A stretch of 63,121 nucleotides of DNA, counting the filler, from Rhabdomonas costata (lineage: Eukaryota): assembly GCA_019059605.1 (NCBI GenBank). It is 57 parts of 57 records of this genome, joined end to end, with 100 filler letters (N's around TTAATTAATTAA, not from the genome) between each part and the next. Parts side by side here need not be neighbours in the genome. Positions count along the whole stretch, not along the records: positions 13,320 to 14,329 come from JAHMHO010033786.1; 56 more parts are not named here. One strand, 5' to 3'. A program made the translations under genes and the position numbers. The notes beneath the pieces were generated by a model, which was not told the origin of the DNA, did not search any database, and worked only from the letters and a program-made list of their open reading frames with translations. Positions 5,259 to 55,358 of this stretch are shown here, in pieces. Positions within the stretch are counted from its first letter, which is position 1. Every line of letters starts with the position of its first letter.

Positions 5259-7870
5259 CTGCCACCATCATAAACGCACAGGCGTATACCACCACAACAG
5301 ACGGGACGGGGATGACCAGCACCCCGCGTCCACACACATATGCCCCCGCATTGGAAAGTGAACCATGTCAAAACCAGGCCACCAGTGGCAATTCACAGCA
5401 TCGGGACCAACCAAGAGCACCCCGACCAACCACACCAAACACACAACACANNNNNNNNNNNNNNNNNNNNNNNNNNNNNNNNNNNNNNNNNNNNTTAATT
5501 AATTAANNNNNNNNNNNNNNNNNNNNNNNNNNNNNNNNNNNNNNNNNNNNGTTGGTTTTGATCTGGACTTCTTATTTTTGAGATGAAGTGGGCATTTTCC
5601 ATAATTATACCATCTGGGAAAAATGCATTCAATGGACTCACCAATGACATCAAGGAGGTAAGTAACCTGGTGTGTGCTCAATGAGATAGGTCACAGCTTC
5701 TCCTTGCCTTGGCGCCAGCATCAACAAAGCGCGTATGCATCTATTGCCCTCTCCAGCCACCAACTATCAACGTGAACAATGAAGCAGACGAAAGAACGGG
5801 AGGGAAGAGGGGGTGGCCCGGCGTGAGTGCAAAACAAAAACCACTGTGTGTAAAAATGAGTGTGTGAAATTGGGGAGCCGAGCCTGCGATTCTCAGAGAT
5901 GAAAATGCGAAGAAGAAACCCTGAAACACCATAGTACACCGTTCATAATTTACCTGGGCAAGCCTCTATGTGCAGCACCACAGGGTTTGCACAACATTCG
6001 CTTGACGCGACGCGGCCGCAGATTTAAACTCGTGTTTCCGACACCACAGCAATTAAAGGAAGAGAAAAACCACAGGTGGTGTGCATAAAAAAAAGGACCA
6101 GAACAAACGCTTGTCACGAAAAGCACATAGACACCCCAGTGTAGAGGCTGTTTGTTAGCCGCGCCGGGCCCAAGGAGGGGTCGTCCAGCGCCACCGCGAC
6201 CAATCGCTTGGTGTACTCATCGCGCGCCCGCTGCAGGGCCACGGGGTACTCCGCCCCGGCCTTGCTTGGCTATGGCAGAAAGGCGTACATGCACCCTTAG
6301 GGAGTTTGAGAAATCCGCTTCAGAAAAGAGGAGGAAACGTTCGGAAAGCCTGGGCATACATTGAAAACTAGGTGGCGGGCTCAAGGGTGGAGAAGGATGA
6401 AACGAGGGTGAACACCAGTGCAACCGAGGAATCAACATCAGTGATAAACAGCAGGATCGGACTATTCCTAAAAGCATGCCGTATCAACACTAGTCACTGG
6501 CATGGTACGCAGGCTAACGTATTCCAAATAAAACCAGACAACGGAATAACATGCGCCTACNNNNNNNNNNNNNNNNNNNNNNNNNNNNNNNNNNNNNNNN
6601 NNNNTTAATTAATTAANNNNNNNNNNNNNNNNNNNNNNNNNNNNNNNNNNNNNNNNNNNNCCCGGGTGGGCGACGTGGTGCTATGGAAGGCCAACTCCCC
6701 TGTTCTCTCCCGATGGCTTGCTGTGGTCAACACAAGGACGCGGAAATAAAAAGGTGAAAAAGTGAAAAAAAAAAAAAACAAGGCCAAATGTGTCGACTGA
6801 AACCCAAATGATAGTAGGTACCGAAGTGGAGCCCGCCGAGGGCGACATTATGCTTCCTATTCGCAACGCTCATGATACTACTCCGGATGCCTCGGCAAGC
6901 CTCGACATTCTCCGTAATTCAGAGCCCTTCAAGACGATACCGAAATGAGAGATGATGTCTGATGTCTGACACATAAATACCGATAATGAAGACATACTAC
7001 CCCATTCCCTACGGTCCTGGGGCCCCAAGTCTTTCATGGTCGTGTGCTACGCCTACTCCCTAGATGTATGGATGCTACTCCGCTCAGCTTCGTGACTTTA
7101 TTTATAATCCTACTCCGAGATGGCCACCCTCCTACATAACCTTGAGTGAGGAATCCGAAATCTAAGGCTAAACCCAAATTGAGGTAACCACTCAAAATGG
7201 AGGCCGCCGAGGCCGACTGTGAGGGTGAGCGAAGCGAACAGTATACCCTACTACGCAAGACCTGCCGGCCATGCAACCGCTACCTGAAGCCAGCAAGGAC
7301 GAATACCGAATACAAATCCCCGGCTCCAGAACCCGAACCAAAATAGTGGTTGAGCCATCGAAACCTATCGGTATCCAGTAATTCCACCCGATTTGACCAC
7401 GTTCGGCACGTTCCGTCCACCGCAACTTCTGGAGCAGTTCCCCAGTCGCTGTCATTCTCGCGTGGAGATCCTGAAGGTTAATAAGCGCGTTGACGACTAC
7501 TGCAGAGCAAACTCACCAGCGAACTGAACCTTTAAGGAATATAACGTTTTTTCTTCAATTTCTTCATTTTTCTTAGAACTCGCTTTGGGTCAGCGCACCC
7601 CGGCCCTTTTCACTGCTTTTTCCAGCGGCCAAGGGGAGACGGAGCGAAGATGACTCCTTGCAACACACCNNNNNNNNNNNNNNNNNNNNNNNNNNNNNNN
7701 NNNNNNNNNNNNNTTAATTAATTAANNNNNNNNNNNNNNNNNNNNNNNNNNNNNNNNNNNNNNNNNNNNGTTGGGGGTGAGGGAAGGATCCCCTGAGCTT
7801 GAGCAGGGCGAATTTGTACGTTTATTCTCAATTCGGAGCTCATATCTCTGTTCTTTCTGAAGTTCCCCCA

Positions 7871-8140
7871 ATGGCTACCACCACGGGGTCAGGTGCAGAC
7901 GCGGCGGCGACCGCCGGGCCCGAGAAGAGAGCCGCGGGCACCCCTCTGTACCTGGACTACAATGCCACCACCCCAATCTGCGCCGAAGCTGTGGAGGCGA
8001 TGGTTTCCTACCTCCGCGATGGGTTTCCGCACGGCAACCCTAGCAGTGGGCATGCCTATGGGGTGCAAGCTAAGGCGCTGGTGGAAGGGGCCCGGCAGAG
8101 GGTGAGCGTGGCTCTGGGGGCGCGTCCTGACGGCTCTGAG
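7871..8140 (+). CDS. First exon of class V PLP enzyme (cysteine desulfurase NifS / selenocysteine lyase-like)
   Basis: Motifs LYLDYNATTP and GNPSSGHAYG..AK..VE.AR; exon ends GAG|gtcgga just before the expected FTSGG. Confidence 0.88.
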
Positions 8141-11100
8141 GTCGGAGTCTTTTCCCTCCTGCATCACTGCATCGCTCTATTGTTGGTGGTGGCGGGGTTC
8201 GGAGGATTTAACTGACGTGGAAGGGAGGGGGTGATCGTTACCATTATCGGTAAGAACTTTCCCTGTCGGGCAATAATCGACAATGCTGGGGGTTTCAATT
8301 GAAATGCAGCAACACCTTTGAAAAATATTTTTATGACACAGGGGTTTGTGTCATGTGTTGTTCCCCTATTTGTGCTGCTGGGCTGCGTCTCCTTTACTTA
8401 ACAGACTCAGTCTTTTTCGAAAAACAAGCAACTATTTTGAACGGTGCATTGGACCATCGAGGAGAGAGCCCATGCAGTGGTCTACCATCGCCGCGGCTCA
8501 GCACTGTTCTGTACCAATTGTTAATTGTTCTGTTACAAAGCTAAACTATCAACTTTAAACTATCCCAACAAAATGGGAGTGCAACACCCATCTGCAACCA
8601 CACTCACCATCCAAGAAAATAACTAAGTAATGTCACATTTTAACTGGGACACCGGTATATTTAAAAAAACAGGTCACGTTCCCACACCAGCCGCCTGCTC
8701 TGGCCGCGACGCGGCGGGCCGCGCTGGCCTTTTGGTCCCAAACTAAAGCTGTCCTGCTCGTCAGCCCGTGTTCCAGCCGNNNNNNNNNNNNNNNNNNNNN
8801 NNNNNNNNNNNNNNNNNNNNNNNTTAATTAATTAANNNNNNNNNNNNNNNNNNNNNNNNNNNNNNNNNNNNNNNNNNNNTTTGCCTCTCGTATTAACACC
8901 TGTCGTGCACCTTTGTGCACCGCAGACACACTACAGGCCCCAACTGCCGACAAAGTGGTAAAGTTCATGAACGGAGAAACACAGAGGCTAGTTCTCCGTG
9001 GTAAAATGTTGTATTCCCACTCTAGTGGAAGCTGGGGAAGTCCCATTTTGACGGCTTCCCCGGAGGAAAAGCCGCAACCCCGGGTAACGGGACCTGCCCC
9101 ACACCAACAAATGCAGTACCGGAACTGGGAGATGTGAACCGGTACCGAGTAGAAGGGTAGTGTAACGTTTTACCCAGGTATAGTGTAACCCGTTCAGCGA
9201 CACCACACACACCGTGCCGACCGTGTTTTTTTCTCGTGCTCTTCTTTGTGCTACCATGTTCATGCTCATTTGTGTTTTTCAGGCACTCCACGCCACTGCT
9301 GCACCACCCTTCCGCGCGTATGTGTTTATTTGCTTGTCTTTCTGGTCTCCTCTTTGCTTTTGTACCAAACAGTGTGAGGCAAATCTGCCGCACTCATGCC
9401 GGCAAGTAGCAGCCTCTGCGCGCCACAGTCGGCAGTACCCCACCTCCAGTCAGCCATTGGCGCCGATACAACCCGCCTGATGCTCACGAAAACCAAAACA
9501 CACGCACGCACACAAATATACACTGCACTTGACCACTGCACCACTTTTGCTGCAAATGTGCACTTTGCACCCCTTTCCACGACTAACGGATTCTTTTGGC
9601 ACCACACTAACACACCTTTTTTTTCACACATTAGTCGCCCCTTAACTTTTTCCGAGGCTCCTCCGCCACTAGCGGGTGAAGGTGCAACGGTCCTCCTAAT
9701 GTCAGAAACCAATCCTTTTTCCCCTAGGTCATGGATCACGCCATGCCCGGAAACAAATACTCCCACAACACATACTTTCACCCACGTTTTCCCCCTAACG
9801 AAATTGCCTTTTTGGCCAAATGACCTTTCTGGTCAATCACCTTGACCACTGCTACTGTCTTTTCCCTGCCCAACACCCGTTGTCTTTTTNNNNNNNNNNN
9901 NNNNNNNNNNNNNNNNNNNNNNNNNNNNNNNNNTTAATTAATTAANNNNNNNNNNNNNNNNNNNNNNNNNNNNNNNNNNNNNNNNNNNNTTTTTTGTATA
10001 AACAGCATGCCTCCAAAAACGCTGAATTTGCAGTTACTTGCGGTAAGTATTTCATATATTTTCACTCCAGACTTCTGCCGGTTGTAGTGCCACCTTGGCA
10101 GATTTTTTTGTTCCCTTTACACCGCATCTTGCCAACGCAGTAGTAATGGCGTAAGTGCAGTGCATTACCACAAGAATGCTCGGTGCACAGGTGCAATGAC
10201 TCACTGATATGAGAGCTGAAGAGTACGCGGAAAGAAAAGTGATACATAGAAAATGACAGCGACGATGATGGTATGGGTCTATGAGCCTTGACACACCGAG
10301 GCAGCTCACGCACTGGTGATTAGGACAGTCATTTGTCCAAGAAGATGAAACCATTTCAAACTCAAGATGCGCTACTGTGGGATGGTGAATAAGTTATCGG
10401 AAACTATCTTTCACTCCTTTCACTTTTCCACTTCACTCGATTCATTTTTTCCATATTACTTCATTTCCTTCTTTTTTTGTTTTATCTCAACTCTCAAGCA
10501 ACTTTCTTGGTCTCAACTCTCACATGATTTATTGTTTTAAACTTGTTTGACTTGACCTGTTATGCATCTCTTGCATTCTTTATTATATCTTAGTGGCTAC
10601 TGAAGTTGACCAATCTGTGACTCTGGATTTCAAAACCACTGGGTTGAGTGCATCCACAAAGACCCTGGTGGAACGCCGAGACCGGTATGACCTGTAGACT
10701 GCTACGGTTGATGGTGGGCACACAAATGTAAAAACTTGTTGCCTTTGTGCTTCCTTTCTATTCCAGGGCCCTGTTGGTGGATGGTGTAAATGGTGTAAAG
10801 CTACACTTGGTGGAGGGTGTGTGGTTGGTACGCTGGTGGAGCGGTGGCGGATGTGCTTGCTGGGTTTCCGTTTGCTTCGTTTTATCACTCAAAGTGCCAT
10901 TTTATGTATACAGCGTTTTGCTAGCATTTATCTTTGATTTTCGCGTCTCTGCGCGTGCGCCGGCGTCTTTTGCACAGCATTGGCGAAGGGAGTTATTTGN
11001 NNNNNNNNNNNNNNNNNNNNNNNNNNNNNNNNNNNNNNNNNNNTTAATTAATTAANNNNNNNNNNNNNNNNNNNNNNNNNNNNNNNNNNNNNNNNNNNNA

Positions 11101-12066: not shown

Positions 12067-12214
12067 CTACTGTTTGCCTTTCTCGTTCGTGTTCCACACC
12101 ACCAACCCCNNNNNNNNNNNNNNNNNNNNNNNNNNNNNNNNNNNNNNNNNNNNTTAATTAATTAANNNNNNNNNNNNNNNNNNNNNNNNNNNNNNNNNNN
12201 NNNNNNNNNGGTTG

Positions 12215-12361
12215 TGTCCCTGCGGGGCCCTTACCCTTACACTCCCTACCACTATACCCCGACAACACCGCATCAGCATCAAGGTAAAGCATCACGTCCA
12301 CACTCCGATGGTCTAAGGGTATAGTGGTTGGGAGTGTAAGGGTAAGGGCCCCGCAGGGACA
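12215..12361. repeat. 45-bp inverted repeat (12215-12259 / 12317-12361, 1 mismatch) at contig end
   Basis: tgtccctgcggggcccttacccttacactccc(t/a)accactataccc and its reverse complement. Confidence 0.9.
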
Positions 12362-12379
12362 GAACCGCGATGCCAAGCT

Positions 12380-13319: not shown

Positions 13320-14069
13320 CCTTGAAAAAATGGATCAATGCCGCCCTGAATTTAATTTCTTCTTTGTTGGGGTTAAGTGATGTTTCTGTAGCTTCTGCAA
13401 CTATTGGTGAATTTTTACAATATAACGGCTCAAAATGGATTAATACAAGTATAACATTGATTAAAAAATTTAGCCGGTTTATCGGATTGCTCTATATCCT
13501 CACCTTCTGATAATCAAGTGTTACAGTATATGTCTGGTGTTTGGACTAATACAACATTAAATACAACATTGGATGGTTTATCAGATGTCCAAATATCTAA
13601 TCCATTGAAAGATCAAGTGATCGTGTACAATGGTAATACATGGACTGATCAAACACAAACACAAACACTTACACAAAGAAATATATTTATTCAGGTATTA
13701 ATAACTTGGTTCCCAACTAATCTATTTGTAAATGGTTATCAAACAATACAAATACAACAAGAAAATACGATAACCTTATTCGCTTGTGATAATGATAGGC
13801 CTGCTGACTTTCGACAAGTCATCATTATGCCCGATATGTCAAAGCTTACTAATGGTTTCACGTTTTATGTTGTTCTAAAAAAACCAACTGTTGGGTGTCA
13901 CACTTACTTTTACCCGTATATGCCCTACATGGACAGCGCATTATTTATTTTAAAGGACAATCTAACAACATTTGTTCAACCTGATGAACAACTCAGAGAT
14001 ACTACTTATAAATTTGTTTGCTTCGCAAACTTTTGTTTCGCACACGCAAAGTCAAATCTCTTCACTTGA
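13320..14069 (+). CDS. Virus-like fibre/adhesin repeat protein, 5'-truncated, with a one-base frameshift in the A6 run at 13463-13468
   Basis: Intronless and strongly AT-rich; three ~33-35-aa units: LSDVSVASATIGEFLQYNGSKWIN / LSDCSISSPSDNQVLQYMSGVWTN / LSDVQISNPLKDQVIVYNGNTWTD. Confidence 0.7.
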
Positions 14070-14283
14070 CCAGTGACCCTGGTCAGGGTACAGCACAGTG
14101 CCGTGGCAGAGTAGCTCTGCATCGCTTCGGTGGGTTGGGGTGGGGTGGGTTCCGGAACACACAAAATTAGGGTATGAAAGAGGTGTGCTGTGGAGGGACG
14201 GAGCATGTGCGAAACATCAGTTTGCTTCGCAAACTTTTGTTTCGCACACGCAAAGTCAAATCTCTTCACTTGACCAGTGACCC
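14016..14283. repeat. Identical 64-bp direct repeat (14016-14079 and 14220-14283), period 204 bp
   Basis: gtttgcttcgcaaacttttgtttcgcacacgcaaagtcaaatctcttcacttgaccagtgaccc present twice with no mismatch. Confidence 0.95.
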
Positions 14284-15539
14284 AAAACAACCCCCTCTCG
14301 TTGCCAAAAACGGGGAATGACCAGAGAATNNNNNNNNNNNNNNNNNNNNNNNNNNNNNNNNNNNNNNNNNNNNTTAATTAATTAANNNNNNNNNNNNNNN
14401 NNNNNNNNNNNNNNNNNNNNNNNNNNNNNTTGTGTTTGTCACCGTCCCAAGACGTTGCTTCTGTAGCAGAACATCGTATAAGTAGCATTGACATTGACAT
14501 TGCTGAATGAAGCTGACCGTGAGGCGTTCCATGCATGGAGGATGGTAGCGTTGAAGAAGTGCTCTTTTGGAGGCCTTCTCCAACATTACCATTTTTAGGC
14601 GGAGGTCAGCAGCACCCCATGGGTCAGTGAGCTTCGCGAGATGCACGTCACCTTCGGAGCCATGCACGGGGCCCTCGTGGGGTTCAGCAAGTGTGTCGTG
14701 CCCCCGTCTGACCTTTCTTTTTTTACCTGGTTTGGTTTGTCTGCGGAATGCGGAAGGTGAGCGAGGGCTTTTATGTTCAGTTCGCTCATGCGCTTAATCT
14801 GTTTAATATCACTAATCACAATCACGGCCAAACATCCGACCGTAGGCTAGGCAAGGGTTTTGGACATACTGTTGAGCTCCAGGGAGCTCGGATTCGTGCG
14901 ACGAACCTGATCAGGTTGTGCAGGGGTGCGATCTAGTTTGCCTTTCCATGAATCTGGATTTTCTGTTAGCCTTTTTTTCTTGCAAAAGTCAAACTCCGAA
15001 AGAGCCAGTGTGAATGTGGTCAGCTGTCGCTGCCTCTCTTCTCCTCTGTCATCTCTAAATGATCACCCGATTCTGGATTCATTAGCCTGCATTGACTGCT
15101 TCCCATTTACGGGCTGCGGTGCTGGGGTGCTGGACGCCCGATGTTAGAGTTTTGGAGAGCAGTGAGCCAAGCAGAAAACTGAACTACCTTTCTTTCAACA
15201 TGACATTTCTGCGTTTTCACCCTGCAGGTTTGGTACCCTGAAGAAGCGTTGCTATTGTTCTTCTGGGTGGTGTGAAGGCCGTCTGAGAAAAGGAAACCTT
15301 TCTCAATTCCATTTCTCCACTTTGGGGTGGGCTTTGCGGTGGTTCCTGCTTCTCATGGCTTTTTGCGGCCGCCTTTTCAGGTACGTTCCCACGGTAGTGG
15401 TGATGCAGCTTCTTGCCGAGGTAGCTCCACCCCCCCCCNNNNNNNNNNNNNNNNNNNNNNNNNNNNNNNNNNNNNNNNNNNNTTAATTAATTAANNNNNN
15501 NNNNNNNNNNNNNNNNNNNNNNNNNNNNNNNNNNNNNNT

Positions 15540-18629: not shown

Positions 18630-19279
18630 CACGGCGGGACGCTCAGCACAGACACAGGCAAAGGGAGCCGAGAAAGCCAAACGAAGGAGGTAGAGAGGCG
18701 GAGGAAAGCACAGTAAGCACGCTGGACCAGAACGTCCTTATTAGAAAGCCACACACGTACCACAACACNNNNNNNNNNNNNNNNNNNNNNNNNNNNNNNN
18801 NNNNNNNNNNNNTTAATTAATTAANNNNNNNNNNNNNNNNNNNNNNNNNNNNNNNNNNNNNNNNNNNNGGTTTTGGTGCCTTTCCCAGGTATTCTGGTGG
18901 ATTATTTTGGCTGATATAACCAGTTTCTCGTCAGCGGACATGGCGGATGCGCCGCCGCCCGAGCGGGCGGTCCGGTTGGGGATAGTGTCCGAGGGGAGTT
19001 CATGGGTCACACCAAAAGCGACAAATGTGTGATGGGTTCTCGCGAAATCGAGACCCACGCCCCACCCGTTGTTTCGTTACTCGCCGTTTCACACACACAC
19101 CCTTCCCTCCCCGCTCCAAAATAATGCATCTGACCCTTTTGTCACTCCCCACGTTCGCACAAGGGACATTTGGAAACAGTACAGTAGGATACGTCTCTAT
19201 ACACTCAGTCTCATGTAGATGGAAAATAAAAAATCGCCAAATGCGGATGTACAAGGTGTGTGGTTGGTGAACGGGGCAG

Positions 19280-19538
19280 GCAGTGGAAGCCGGCATGCCA
19301 GGCGTGGGAGGAAGCCTTCGACGCACACGTGCGGGCCCACAACCCGTTCTTCGCGGGGAAGGCCCAGGAGGCGCTGGCGCGGATAGCCACCGACACCCAC
19401 AACCCCGGTGCTGCAGCGGAGCACCTGCAGCGCGCCAGCAAGGTGTACGTGGAGGACGGCAAGCCGGACAAGGCCTCGGACTGCCTCGTCAGGGCGGGCA
19501 GGCTGCTGGCCGACGCGGACCCCGCAAAAGCTGTGGAG
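19280..19538 (+). CDS. NAPG: Gamma-SNAP (NSF attachment protein) internal exon
   Basis: AHVRAHNPFFAGKAQE...LQRASKVYVEDGKPDKASDCLVRAGRLLADADPAKAVE matches the gamma-SNAP helical repeat pattern; flanked by cag| and |gtgggc. Confidence 0.8.
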
Positions 19539-19775
19539 GTGGGCCCCGTGGATACTCTTGTGGTGGTGTAGGCATGAAAAGGCGAGAACATCCGTCGCCA
19601 GCTCTTGTGTGTGTGAATGCTCCAGTGAGGTTTCCCGAACAACTCGTCCCTGCAGCGGTGTAAAGGATAGTCATTCCCCACCCAGCGGCAACGAAGGCGA
19701 AGCATCGATCGGAATGCCGCGTGGAGGAGAATTCTTGAGCATATGCGTTGTGCAATCAATGTGTGTGTGTGTCCA

Positions 19776-20692: not shown

Positions 20693-21097
20693 GCATTCGC
20701 CCCCCACCCCACCCCCACTCCCAACGTTTTTCTCTTTTCAAAGCAGAACTCAAAAATGACCAACTGGGTCTTTGGGGTGTGTTTTATTGATTTTAAATTG
20801 ACCGCTTAGCACTGCCACACGGTCATAGGCTTCGCATTCTCTTGAAACAGAAATTTTTTCCGTCGGGTGGGGGTGGGGGCAAATTACCCCCGACCCTCGT
20901 GCGTTCATAACACCGCCAAACGATTCCCAGTTTGATGCGGTTGCACTGCCAACTGCTGCAGGGGGCACCCTTCACCCTCAGGCAAGTTCNNNNNNNNNNN
21001 NNNNNNNNNNNNNNNNNNNNNNNNNNNNNNNNNTTAATTAATTAANNNNNNNNNNNNNNNNNNNNNNNNNNNNNNNNNNNNNNNNNNNNGTGTGTGT

Positions 21098-21213
21098 GTC
21101 TTTGTATGTGCGTGGGTCTTTTCCGGTTTTTCGCAGGAAAAGATTCTCCCCCCGGGAATCCCGAGAACATTTTCCTGCGAAAAACCGGAAAAGACCCACG
21201 CACATACAAAGAC
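21098..21213. repeat. Perfect 44-bp inverted repeat (21098-21141 / 21170-21213) at contig end
   Basis: gtctttgtatgtgcgtgggtcttttccggtttttcgcaggaaaa and its reverse complement. Confidence 0.92.
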
Positions 21214-22279
21214 CCGCACACATACACTCACTCACTCTGATTCACTCTTTCAGTCACACAGACACACACACACACACACTCACTCACTCACTCACTCACT
21301 CGGTCTTGGTCACGTGATACACAGACGGCTGCTTGGCTGGTTGTACATTTGGACCGGCCTATTTGGTAGGTTTATACCGGTGTAAATGTACACGCGCTTG
21401 CGGGGAGAAAATTCTGGCAGTGGATCAGGAATGGTGATTTTGGATAGATATTTTTTTTAAAAAAAAAGACTGGCAATTCATCTTGGCTTGGTTTCGGTTA
21501 TGTGCAGGGTTGCACGTCACGTCACGAAAAGGGAAGACGTCAGGAGGTATCTTAACGTTGGGGGAGAGAGGGGTCACGGGTACCAATAGGTTTTCACCAG
21601 TGAACATGCGATAATACTCTCTAATGACGGGAGAGGTTGCCCCCCACGCCGTGCTCCCACCTCAGCCTCCGCTCCTGATACAAATGCTGCCCCAAGCGTT
21701 CACCAAATCCATCAACGGACTCGTTCTCACCCAGCAGTATCTTCGGAATACTCGTACCTAACCCCCGAATGAAATATTATCATTTCGCAGGTTGCCAATC
21801 CTCTCTACTCGTTGAACATCCTTCTTCTTCTTCTTCTAACCCGATTGTAGTGTAGCCTGTGCCTGTAACCCCCAGTAGCATTTGAAGTGTACTGTGTACC
21901 TCCCCCGCAACACTGCAAGAGGGAGACAGGGTAAGGGTTAAAATATAGTGCGTCACCAGCCAGGCAGGTGTCCCACAACCCCTCCACGGAGCGTGTGGCC
22001 TCGGCGCCGGCAGTCAGCTTGCGTTCGAGTCGTCCCCCACGACCACCTACCCTGACTCTTGATAACACTCACACAAGGGATCTCCCCGGACCCCCACCCN
22101 NNNNNNNNNNNNNNNNNNNNNNNNNNNNNNNNNNNNNNNNNNNTTAATTAATTAANNNNNNNNNNNNNNNNNNNNNNNNNNNNNNNNNNNNNNNNNNNNG
22201 TGGTGGGTGTGTTTGGGGGTGGGGGGCAGGGAAATGTGCTTCCTCAGACGATTTTTTTGGGAGGTTAAGGGGGTTAAGC

Positions 22280-37629: not shown

Positions 37630-40600
37630 NNNNNNNNNNNNNNNNNNNNNNNNNNNNNNNNNNNNNNNNNNNNTTAATTAATTAANNNNNNNNNNNNNNN
37701 NNNNNNNNNNNNNNNNNNNNNNNNNNNNNGTGGTGGGTGTGTGTGGGGGGGTTGGCACGTTTCTAGAGAGAGCGTCTGGACAAAGGAGAAATGCAAACAA
37801 TTGAAAGACACATCCAAGGTATGCGCTTATCCTGCGGTCAATCGCACCGATGCGTGTAGAAGCGACCAACCCCCGGCCCGACAAAATTGGGCAAACGAGT
37901 TCCGGAGGTCAATTCCATGCCTCAGCCGCATCGACCCCTCCACCGCTCTAACTGAGCACAGCAAACCGAGTGAAAGAGCATTATATCGAAATGAAAATAG
38001 GGGTCAGGAAATGGCAATCCTGAAATGGGACCCCACCGAAGTTTCTACGGGCCTTCCCGACTTCCAAGTGCACTATTCTCCGTGCAATTTTCCTTGAAGG
38101 AACCGACGAGTCCCCAGCATCGGTTTTCCCGAAGCCCCGATTTCGCTATCGCTTTCGCTTGCGCAGCTGCAGTCTCTCCTCTCTCCCGGCGCCGCCCTAG
38201 GAGAAGAAGAAAGTAAAACTACAGCGCCGTATTCGATGTACAAAAACCCAGAGCAGCGCCTCCAAGGGAGTGGCTACGCTGAATGTCACACGTCAAGGGT
38301 CAGCAAATAATGCGGGAGGAGGTCTGCGTGTGCGATCGTGTTTTATTATGGGGTGGCAGGGGATGGACGGAATTTCCGCGTTCACGTAACCAAACCCCGG
38401 CATGTAGCAGAGCCTTCGCTCTTAGGCAGGGGCACACCACCCCGCCAGTGTACCTGTGAGGCATCGGGGACAGGCGGGGAAGTGAGTCGGAAGTGGGTGC
38501 GAAAATACTCAGACGGAGCGACCAAGCACACAAAGAATACGAATCGTTTGAATCAGGAATCAGGACCTACGTGTGCCAAACAGAGGCTCAACCTCGCAGG
38601 GCACGCCTAGCTCCCAGACGCAAGGCGTGAATATGCAGCAAAACCTTTGGCAATCAACTTCGAATATAGATAGGGACACTGCTCACTGCACCCCCTCCCT
38701 CCCGGCAGTTACCAGGTCACGTCGTACATCGCTNNNNNNNNNNNNNNNNNNNNNNNNNNNNNNNNNNNNNNNNNNNNTTAATTAATTAANNNNNNNNNNN
38801 NNNNNNNNNNNNNNNNNNNNNNNNNNNNNNNNNTTGGTGACGGTGTCGCTGTCGCGGCTGGCGGAAGGGATGGACCTGCTGGTATTGCTCCTCCCCTCCC
38901 GGAGCTTCCTCGCGTGGTGTTCTTTTCATTTTTCATTTCGCTTTTTTTTCGCTGGATGTTTCATCCTTTTTTTTCCGTTTGTCATACTGCTCTGGTGTGA
39001 CTGCGTACCTTTGTCATTTCGGTTATCCTGTGCTTCGTATGTTTTGGGCATGGGGCGTTATCGTGAGTGTTTCTAAGTGGTCATGTCCCGCTAAGAAGTG
39101 GGCAGTTGAGTCTCACGAGGGCACTTGAGAGTAGGAGCACGGCAGAGCCGTTCTGCACCACCTGATGCGGATTTTTTGTGGGGGGGCAATACCAAGGGAA
39201 GATCAGTTCGAATTCGACACTTGGCAAGGATCCGAAACAATACGTGTACTGAACATTCGTCGTTGAAACTGAGCTCCTCCACCAGGACGGACAAGGAGTC
39301 CAAGGGCTTCGCTTGGGGGCGTGGTTTCGCCCTCTGCCACAGTTGGAAACTGCCAGTTAATGAGTGGCTACTTTGGGTCCAAGGCGTTGGCAGTGCCGTG
39401 ACCGCATCGGCCTGTGCGCTCCAGTCCAGGGGTTCAGTAGATTCAGGGCAAGGCGCCCTCCTTCTATTGGCTGGGCTTCGTCGTGACCTGCCCCGAGAAT
39501 TCTGCCTTCCCCTAACAACTGCGTTCTTTTGCTTCACTGTCTGGTCTGTGGGCCTTTGGTCTGCTGAACCGTTACGGGTTGGCACCCCGTTTGTTCGGGC
39601 ATGCCAACAGTTCGTTCTTCTATAGATATTTGACAACTTGCATTCCCGCAAAAGAAGGAGCAAAAGAAGCATGTCAATAAGCTGGAGAGAACTACAGATA
39701 CAGACAAATTCTTCGTTCCAGGGAGAGGTGCGTGGACTCTCACGGATCCATTGAACGGAATATTGAAAGGAGATAAAAATGATGGCAGGCCGTTCAATGG
39801 ATCCGTGAGAGTCCACACACCCACCAAACACACCCACCACNNNNNNNNNNNNNNNNNNNNNNNNNNNNNNNNNNNNNNNNNNNNTTAATTAATTAANNNN
39901 NNNNNNNNNNNNNNNNNNNNNNNNNNNNNNNNNNNNNNNNGGTTTGTTTGGGGCCACTCTGGGGACAAGGGGGACCACCCGACGGGTGGCGACACAGTCC
40001 CCCGGCCGAAGGTACGGCGAGGGGTCAGAGCGGAACGTGGAGCCCGAGAATGCAATCAGAGGCGCGCGAGACATGGAGGAGCGCAGTGTGGAGAGGGAAG
40101 GCGCAGAGTTTCAACCACTTCAAAGAGGCGTTGAGGCAAACAGACAAACCCATCCACACACCACAGACAGCATGACGGTACCGATGCAGCTGCAGTGGGA
40201 AGAAGACAACTGTGGCGCGATCCACTCCAACGCTGAACGCTTGAATTCTTTTTGTGAGCAGCCCTTCAGCGGTGCCAATTCCAGGTGCAAAACCAGGCTC
40301 ATGGCGAGTTCATCAGCAACCAATCGCCAAGATGGACCCCAATCGTGCAGCTTCCTCGAATTTAGCGTGAATACCCATACTTGGATGATAAGTCCCCAAC
40401 AATTGGTGAAATAAGCAGAATACGGGCGACTTTAAGTCAATGCCGTGGCGAATAGCAATAGCTACAGCGACACGCAAGTCTCAGTCGGCGCCAAAAGCAT
40501 GTTTATAATGGCTTCCTTTTTTCCCGTATGTGGAAGAAAAAATCTCACTTTAAGAGAGATCATTTTGGATTGCATCGTTACCCACCAGAAAACAACATTT

Positions 40601-54349: not shown

Positions 54350-55358
54350 GGGGAAGAACGAGGAAGTTGCAAATGCGTGCATTCCCCCACACTCAATCTG
54401 ATTGCGGCTAACATCCAAGGAAGTAAGGTTGGGGAAGAAAGGAGAGTTTGCAAGTGCTCGCATTCCCGCAGACCCAATCTGACTACCGCTCGCATTCAAG
54501 GAATTAAGTTTGGGGAAAAAAGGAGAGTTTGCAAGTGCTTGCAATCCTGCACACTCAATCTGACTGACACTCACATCCAAGAAGGAGAGGTTCGGGTAGA
54601 ACGTGGAAGCTGCAAGAGCTTGCATTCCTGAACACCCAACCTGATTGACGCTCACGTTCAAGGTGCAAAGCTTGGAGAAGAAAGCGGAAGCTGCAAGCGC
54701 AAGCGTACCCTCTGAACCGATTTCATTAAAGGTCACATCCAAAAAGGTAAGGCTGGGGAAGAAAGAGGAAGCTGCAAGTGCTTGCATTCCTGCAGACCCG
54801 AACTGGTTGCCACACAATCGCAAGGAGCTAAGATTGAAGAAGAAAGTGGAAGCTGCAAGTGCTATCACTCCTGCATCGTCGACCTGATTGTCCGTCACAT
54901 CCAAGAAGGTAAGCCTGGGGAAGAACGAGGAAGCTGCAAATGCTTGCATTCCCCCACACCCGATTTGATTGCGGCTCACATCCAAGGAGGAAACGAAGGG
55001 GAAGAAAGGAGAGGCAGCAAGTGCCTGCATTCCCGCCGAACTGATCAGACTGGCGCTCACGTTCAAGGAGTTGAGCTCGGAAAAGAAAGAGGAAGCTGCA
55101 AATACATGCATTCCCGTATCGCCCGTCCGATTCCCGCTAACGTTCAAGGAGTTGAGCGTGGGGAAGAAAGAGGAAACTGCAAGCGCTTGAATTCCCCCAC
55201 ACTCGATCTCATTGGCGCTGGCAAACAAGGAGTTGAGTTTGGGAAAGAACGGGGAAGCTGCAAGTGCTTGCATCCCCGCATTCCCGATCATACTTCCGGA
55301 GACATCTAAGAACGTGAGGTTGAGGAAGAAAGAAGAGGCGGCAAGTGCTTGCATTCCC
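54350..55358 (-). CDS. Leucine-rich-repeat protein, 12 full 27-aa (81-bp) repeats plus a partial one, open at both ends
   Basis: Consensus MQALAASxFFPxLxxLDVSxNQIGxxG; uninterrupted frame over the whole contig. Confidence 0.95.

What the first reader, a model, noticed from the sequence alone, without database searches (positions are those of the whole stretch)
13320..14069. AT-rich virus-like fibre gene in a GC-richer, intron-rich genome
Seen: intronless, far more AT-rich than the other coding contigs, with three LSDxxI..P..xQVLxY(N)G..W.N repeats; a single extra A at 13463-13468 splits the frame. From my recall of the family, this repeat is typical of phage tail fibres and of giant-virus, virophage and Polinton-like virus fibres. 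Inference: an endogenous viral element or co-amplified virus of this protist, possibly undescribed.
Basis: partly seen in the sequence, partly recalled or inferred. Interest (0 to 1): 0.7.

Follow-up and report, generated by a model that had tools for sequence, protein, structure and literature searches.

The report
Virus fibre gene scrap, doubtful junction
A 700-base AT-rich piece of a real viral fibre gene, predicted to form a three-stranded attachment fibre and most likely from a small DNA virus of protists, is cut off and joined to a repeat that likely belongs to the host; the join may be a laboratory amplification artefact, so this is an ordinary virus fragment and not proof of integration.

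Summary
The AT-rich part (13320-14019, GC 0.33 against 0.50) is the middle of a conserved gene: three ~34-residue repeats plus a ~110-residue module. They come from a GC-richer hairpin repeat joined at 14016-14019 over a 4-base microhomology. In three runs of one sample the gene occurs as several variants with mostly synonymous differences. Essentially all laid depth lacks the extra A, and the gene continues past both ends. The repeats are predicted to trimerise (0.72 against 0.00 for controls). They match phage tail-fibre families; every context I could annotate was a tailed phage. The only relatives sharing the post-repeat module lie on short, unannotated contigs. A Polinton-like virus or virophage is the best guess (0.55), a phage of companion bacteria the main rival (0.25). 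Integration is unproven: the assembly carries whole-genome-amplification primer signatures and no listed contig bridges the junction. Earlier scan notes report similar capsid, penton and fibre scraps on other pieces of this assembly; none matched this contig by sequence. New member of a known kind; low interest.

The parts
13320..14019 (+). AT-rich internal fragment of a viral fibre gene, open at the 5' end and cut at the 3' end
   Evidence: GC 0.33. Homology to P0010/P0152 residues ~160-395 of 509. Loose ends in runs continue before 13323 and behind 14019.
13364..13444 (+). Shaft repeat 1 (L-x-x-L-S-D ... Y-N-G-x-x-W-x-N), upstream frame; preceded by the W-x-N tail of a further repeat at 13322-13339
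   Evidence: phrog_9627 and phrog_9729 hits
13463..13468 (+). A6 run carrying the frame break of this copy
   Evidence: Sequence. In laid contigs one letter is left out at depth 272 (plus 19 placed at 13468) of 291 in X1, 397 of 397 in X2 and 111.5 of 111.5 in X3.
13470..13655 (+). Shaft repeats 2 and 3; predicted beta-hairpin units that pack between three chains
   Evidence: pLDDT 74-86 for residues 11-70; trimer interface at residues 2-63
13674..14019 (+). ~110-residue module after the shaft, shared with P0152/P0010 and P0099; function inferred (binding or neck module); no library family
   Evidence: Shuffle tests: against P0152 0 of 1000 (z 5.1), against P0099 21 of 1000; P0152 against P0099 0 of 1000. 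No Pfam hit; no hit in 50,697 phage records; pLDDT 34-61.
14016..14019 (.). Junction: 4-base microhomology shared by the viral gene and the repeat, inside an 8-base G/T-only run (14013-14020)
   Evidence: (loose end behind 14019 in X1 and X3)
14016..14329 (.). GC-richer, high-copy, non-coding hairpin repeat, probably of the host: 64-base exact direct repeat (14016-14079, 14220-14283) and an imperfect hairpin (14203-14251).
   Evidence: z -2.9; many variant contigs, summed depth up to ~5,000 in X2, diverse flanks behind 14220-14227; no Rfam family near its gathering score

Best explanation
This is an internal fragment of a conserved, multi-variant viral fibre gene whose repeats are predicted to wind three chains into a shaft and whose following module likely helps bind the host cell; it most likely belongs to a Polinton-like virus or virophage associated with the sequenced protist, and this copy is broken by a frame break and by a join to a probable host repeat that is more likely an amplification chimera than a true insertion. 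Shown: real coding gene under purifying selection, several variants in one sample, frame open at the A-run in the laid contigs, gene longer than the contig at both ends, repeat homology to phage tail fibres. Predicted: homotrimeric shaft. Inferred: attachment to a capsid vertex by the missing N-terminus, receptor binding by the C-terminal modules, the virus group, and the artefactual nature of the join (about 0.7 chimera, 0.3 real).
For: Coding and selected: of the 36 listed variant sites inside the gene, 21 are synonymous and 19 are third positions; expected share 0.22-0.29, P 2e-6 to 2e-4 (only the 40 best-supported of 180 rows were shown). Fibre: phrog_9729 tail fibre E 1.6e-4 and phrog_9627 E 1.2e-5; 15 phage records, several annotated tail fibre. 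Trimer score 0.72, best of 3 controls 0.00; runs agree in at least 72% of contacts; pLDDT at least 51. The mark was reached by 21 of 30 solved pairs and 0 of 23 single chains, on a calibration of two copies, not three. Small protist virus: AT-rich against the host; several coexisting variants, from under 90% to over 99% alike, in one sample, the pattern described for protist endogenous viruses (PMC10120064, sections 7 and 8); PLVs carry phage-like modular fibres (PMC12220804 section 13; Gezel-14T Ltf, passages); unverified scan notes place PLV-type capsid, penton and penton-plus-fibre scraps on other AT-rich pieces of this assembly. Chimera: 37 of 57 contigs begin with 8 G/T-only letters and 32 of 57 end with 8 A/C-only letters (internal rate 1.2%, reverse control 0 and 0); 4-base microhomology; no target-site duplication seen; the viral gene does not resume in the 310 bases left; none of the 26 listed pieces bridges the join.
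Against: No capsid, penton, ATPase, polymerase or integrase lies on the contig, and no genome is held. All annotated homologue contexts are tailed phages (12 of 16 loci), and all ten Atlas rows but one are virus clusters dominated by Uroviricota, at lead-level scores of 0.80-0.85. No Pfam domain named for PLV fibres in PMC12220804 is on the fragment. The contexts of the closest relatives (P0152, P0099) could not be fetched. For a real insertion: this copy is a minor, diverged variant with its own frame break; host mobile elements do invade endogenous viruses (PMC10120064 section 7; abstracts of PMC12455990 and PMC12166617); and 493 pieces were not shown. The runs may be the window's own source sample, so they are not independent.
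Confidence: 0.55

Rival explanations
1. Tail or head fibre of a tailed phage of bacteria sampled with the protist, joined to a host repeat by an amplification chimera.
For: The repeat is abundant in tailed phages. BFVD best rows are phage fibres, all with E of 2e-3 or weaker. Many hits of P0152 carry PF11133, PF12789 or PF13884. One scan note read another fibre scrap of this assembly as phage (e1-9755322).
Against: No cultured phage and none of 58 fetched loci carries the post-repeat module; phage matches are repeat-only. Several coexisting variants in one sample fit an endogenous family better than a clonal phage (inference).
Confidence: 0.25
2. Fibre-like gene of a giant virus (free or endogenous) of the protist.
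For: AT-richness. Unverified notes list giant-virus-like scraps in the same assembly. Giant endogenous elements are reported in Euglena gracilis (PMC12455990, abstract), and phage fibre-like proteins in PgV (passage).
Against: No named giant-virus protein among the top 50 BFVD rows (many rows are unnamed) or among the protein hits.
Confidence: 0.15
3. A cellular (host or bacterial) adhesin-like gene, or a chance ORF.
For: Two GTDB genomes hold weak repeat matches without phage hallmarks among the ORFs tested (L057, L058).
Against: Synonymous excess rules out a chance ORF. Composition is far from the host's, and homologues are overwhelmingly viral or unplaced.
Confidence: 0.05

Closest known systems
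Unannotated metagenomic proteins P0152/P0010 (509 aa; JGI contig of 3.8 kb, Logan contig of 1.3 kb) and P0099 (362 aa; ENA contig of 1.5 kb)
   Same: Same order of parts: a run of the same repeats, then the same ~110-residue module (37% over 206 columns; shuffle tests).
   Different: They are longer, with a short N-terminal leader, more repeats and 70-110 further C-terminal residues; the window copy lacks both ends. Their virus type is unknown.
Phage tail-fibre repeat families phrog_9729 (tail fiber protein) and phrog_9627; tail proteins of Pseudomonas PA5oct-like jumbo phages and Salicola phage SCTP-2
   Same: The ~34-residue shaft repeat.
   Different: Matches cover the repeats only (22-37% of the query); the following module has no match in 50,697 phage records.
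Phage-like modular fibres of Polinton-like viruses (PMC12220804, section 13) and Ltf of Gezel-14T/PgVV (bioRxiv 10.1101/2022.07.28.501842, passages)
   Same: A repeat-built, phage-derived fibre in an AT-rich element found with a protist; it works like these if the best explanation holds.
   Different: None of their named domains (peptidase S74, laminin G, collagen, PTR, BppL, gp36-like) is detected on this fragment. No sequence comparison with those proteins was possible, and no penton is in view.
Endogenous PLV and virophage families of protists (PMC10120064) and giant endogenous elements of Euglena gracilis (PMC12455990)
   Same: Low-GC, multi-variant viral genes on short contigs, with frameshifts that may be assembly errors.
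   Different: There, integration was shown with long reads; here it is not shown.

Membership tests
Polinton-like virus / virophage | Double jelly-roll major capsid, penton and A32-like ATPase in the same element | not testable with these tools
   The 1-kb contig holds only the fibre fragment; no genome is held; only unverified notes on other pieces.
Polinton-like virus / virophage | Replication and integration genes, terminal inverted repeats, 15-40 kb genome | not testable with these tools
   The fragment is too short.
Polinton-like virus / virophage | Phage-like modular fibre protein | tested here: met
   Repeat homology to phage tail fibres; predicted trimer. Not exclusive to PLVs.
Polinton-like virus / virophage | Fibre domains named for PLVs (S74 chaperone, laminin G, collagen, PTR, BppL, gp36-like) | tested here: inconclusive
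   No Pfam hit on the fragment or on P0152 above cut-off; both ends of the gene are missing.
Endogenous viral element | GC contrast with the host and many close variants in one sample | tested here: met
Endogenous viral element | Virus-host junction supported by spanning molecules | tested here: inconclusive
   No listed piece bridges 14016-14019, but 493 pieces were not shown and contigs drop rare variants; the DNA was amplified.
Mobile-element insertion into the viral gene | Gene resumes after the element, with a target-site duplication | tested here: inconclusive
   Neither is seen in the 310 bases before the contig ends; the element may be longer.
Tailed-phage tail fibre | Shaft repeat homologous to tail-fibre families | tested here: met
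   phrog_9729 E 1.6e-4; 15 phage records.
Tailed-phage tail fibre | Location in a tail gene module | not testable with these tools
   No neighbouring gene on the contig; contexts of the closest relatives were not retrieved.
Giant virus (Nucleocytoviricota) | Core marker genes in linkage | not testable with these tools
   None on the contig.
Euglenid nonconventional intron | Donor signature N3-C-D-G at the junction (PMC12501133, passages) | tested here: not met
   0 of 12 start positions, 14012-14023, fit.

The most novel reading that the evidence does not exclude
A resident, diversified family of Polinton-like viruses is integrated in the genome of a euglenid-type protist, uses a fibre with an undescribed post-shaft module, and this contig catches one decaying copy whose fibre gene was knocked out by a frameshift and by insertion of an uncatalogued host hairpin repeat.
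Probability: 0.2. Interest if true: 0.45.

Novelty: new member of a known kind. Interest (0 to 1): 0.2.

Why it matters
As it stands it matters little: one more short viral scrap in an amplified, fragmented protist assembly, of a kind that is already well described. If the junction were real it would tie a small DNA virus family to this host lineage. Three paper searches listed no paper devoted to PLVs in euglenids, only giant endogenous elements in Euglena; the library lacks most subscription papers and I did not open supplements of the large surveys. The ~110-residue module is a small unclassified family that could be a new receptor-binding part.

Tried and rejected
Whole-genome look-up: none held. 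Word-indexed homologue searches with the window protein: 0 hits at near length and 1 repeat-only hit among longer proteins. Scans for related loci with the window ORF, P0152 and P0056 in IMG/VR: nothing. Scans with P0099 and with alignments A1 and A2 in IMG/VR, JGI metagenomes and GTDB: 58 loci, 14 of which match the read-through at E of 1e-3 or better, all in the repeats; none matches the post-repeat module. One alignment was too diverged to scan with. PDB by sequence: 0. Single-sequence fold: pLDDT 31, useless. Fold searches of the alignment model: no PDB match at E of 0.001 or better, best VIA Z 2.0, BFVD best E 2.3e-3; the module after the repeats was barely tested, so no claim of a new fold. 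Atlas: leads only, under 0.9. Repeat: no Rfam family; no exact match of a 28-base piece in IMG/VR; not elsewhere in the window; no look-alike in earlier scan notes; not a nonconventional intron donor. No RNA holder was listed. X4 (rhizosphere, share 0.04) holds only one 151-base contig like the repeat. I first took an X2 contig ending exactly at 14019 as a sign of a branch at the junction, then rejected it: its end is explained by the variant at 13989, 31 letters earlier. The G/T run at the junction is weak evidence: runs of 8 or more cover about 8% of this contig. Papers on amplification chimeras in protists: nothing usable, so that mechanism rests on my own knowledge.

Full report
Setting. 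The window is a string of 57 unrelated contigs of about 1010 bases; no whole genome is held. The host is a eukaryote with sparse coding: 3 of 133 ORFs scanned hit Pfam, among them a SNAP domain. Earlier scan notes call the assembly euglenid-type; I did not test that. 37 of 57 contigs start with eight G/T-only letters and 32 of 57 end with eight A/C-only letters, against an internal rate of 1.2% and none in the reverse control. From my own knowledge this is the mark of whole-genome amplification with G/T-degenerate primers, so chimeric joins are a live risk. The finding's contig is one of 7 with neither mark.

Observation. The stretch 13320-14015 has GC 0.329; the other 56 contigs never fall below 0.417 over the same length. 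Three repeats with LSD cores begin at 13373, 13479 and 13578, and the tail of a fourth opens the contig. The A6 run at 13463-13468 splits the frame as stated. The last 17 codons of the ORF come from that repeat.

What the runs show. Three runs of one sample (X1-X3, possibly the window's own source) hold 52, 39 and 26% of the sampled words. Laid on the contig (contigs only), they give 129, 284 and 98 pieces ranging from under 90% to over 99% alike. At the A-run one letter is left out at essentially all depth: 272 plus 19 of 291 in X1, 397 of 397 in X2, 111.5 of 111.5 in X3. The break is thus private to this copy or an error; false frameshifts are documented for short-read assemblies of multi-variant endogenous viruses (PMC10120064, section 7). 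Loose ends in X1 and X3 run on before 13323 and behind 14019. Read by eye in frame, the first gives another repeat core (Q-V-L-x-Y) and the second two tyrosines, matching the end of the same module in P0099 and P0152. So the native gene is longer at both ends. Of the 40 variant rows shown (of 180), 36 fall in the gene: 21 synonymous, 15 not, against an expected share of 0.22-0.29 (P at most 2e-4). The window copy differs from all laid depth at some sites (13623, 13759), so it is a minor variant. The repeat part is covered by many variant contigs, with summed depth up to about 5,000 in X2 and diverse flanks: a high-copy dispersed or tandem family. None of the 26 listed pieces bridges the join; 493 were not shown.

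What the protein is. No Pfam family. PHROGs gives phrog_9627 (E 1.2e-5) and the tail-fibre family phrog_9729 (E 1.6e-4) on the repeats; 15 of 50,697 phage records match the repeats, several annotated as tail fibre. phmmer against 1.84 billion representatives gave 1,060 hits at E of 0.001 or better; of the 150 listed, only P0010 aligns well into the module after the repeats (37% over 206 columns). Its full-length cluster mate P0152 has 509 residues. P0099 shares the module more distantly. An AlphaFold2 model on a 60-sequence alignment is confident only for the repeats (pLDDT 74-86) and finds no solved match. Three copies fold as a complex scoring 0.72, best of 3 controls 0.00, with the interface in residues 2-63; runs agree in at least 72% of contacts and pLDDT is at least 51. 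The mark was reached by 21 of 30 solved pairs and 0 of 23 single chains, calibrated on two copies. This supports a trimeric shaft and does not show it.

Whose fibre. The repeat is not diagnostic. Of 58 loci fetched, 14 match at E of 1e-3 or better, all by repeats. For 16 loci I scanned 43 chosen ORFs (41 of 106 listed, plus 2 from L030): 12 loci carry tailed-phage head, tail or lysis genes, and 4 give no hallmark (this library cannot show PLV genes). The ten close relatives looked up are single-member clusters on contigs of 0.7-6.5 kb, and their contexts could not be fetched. For a small protist virus: the variant cloud in one sample matches what is described for endogenous PLV families (PMC10120064, section 8); PLVs use phage-like fibres (PMC12220804, part 1 of 2 of section 13; Gezel-14T passages; Tetraselmis PLV passages); and unverified notes place PLV-type capsid, penton and fibre scraps on other pieces of this assembly. 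I put a PLV or virophage at 0.55, a phage at 0.25, a giant virus at 0.15 and a cellular gene at 0.05.

The junction. It has four shared bases, lies in an 8-base G/T run, removes the outer left arm of the repeat's hairpin, shows no target-site duplication, and the viral gene does not resume. It lacks the donor signature of euglenid nonconventional introns (PMC12501133 passages). For a real insertion: this copy is diverged and frame-broken, and host elements do invade endogenous viruses (abstracts of PMC12455990 and PMC12166617). I put a chimera at about 0.7. Earlier notes reached the same impasse at two other AT-rich/host joins in this assembly.

Verdict. A real fragment of a viral fibre gene from an unclassified small family; virus group probable, integration unproven; new member of a known kind; interest 0.2. 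Searches listed no paper on PLVs in euglenids. Supplements of PMC10120064 and PMC12220804, which list hosts and fibre domains, were not opened and may bear on novelty.

Noticed in passing
window, ends of the 57 contigs: 37 of 57 contigs start with 8 G/T-only letters and 32 of 57 end with 8 A/C-only letters: primer-based amplification. All joins in this assembly need caution.
   Followed up: yes
window 14016-14329: Uncatalogued high-copy hairpin repeat with variable unit length (joints skipping 73-103 bases in the runs) and a TTAGGG at about 14168. A 151-base contig of a rhizosphere metagenome (X4) is 90-95% alike.
   Followed up: partly
window 54350-55357 (-): Uninterrupted 336-codon ORF of ~27-residue leucine-rich repeats (LRR_6, E 2e-34), open across the whole contig, at host-like GC.
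   Followed up: no
window 12210-12366, 21090-21221, 25540-25747, 39727-39821: Imperfect inverted repeats (73-86% over the self-alignment) at or near the ends of four other contigs; natural hairpin elements or amplification fold-backs.
   Followed up: no
window 7781-8212 (+) and 19230-19568 (+): Partial-domain host gene pieces: aminotransferase class V (profile 2-60 of 371) and SNAP (49-135 of 282), as expected for exons.
   Followed up: no
P0152, P0123, P0138, P0104, P0099, N-termini: Several close relatives start with a short (N/S)-P-(Y/F) leader before the first repeat: a candidate anchor. The likeness to the penton-binding tail of adenovirus fibres is recalled and untested.
   Followed up: no
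P0010, C-terminus: The last six residues depart from P0152 and look like sequencing-adapter read-through (recalled), so P0010 is a truncated copy of P0152.
   Followed up: partly
window 13877-13900: A minor X1 contig (depth 17.5) carries a 13-base loss here, and an X2 contig (depth 113 of 125) lacks one letter at 13877: other broken variants or amplification errors exist in the family.
   Followed up: no
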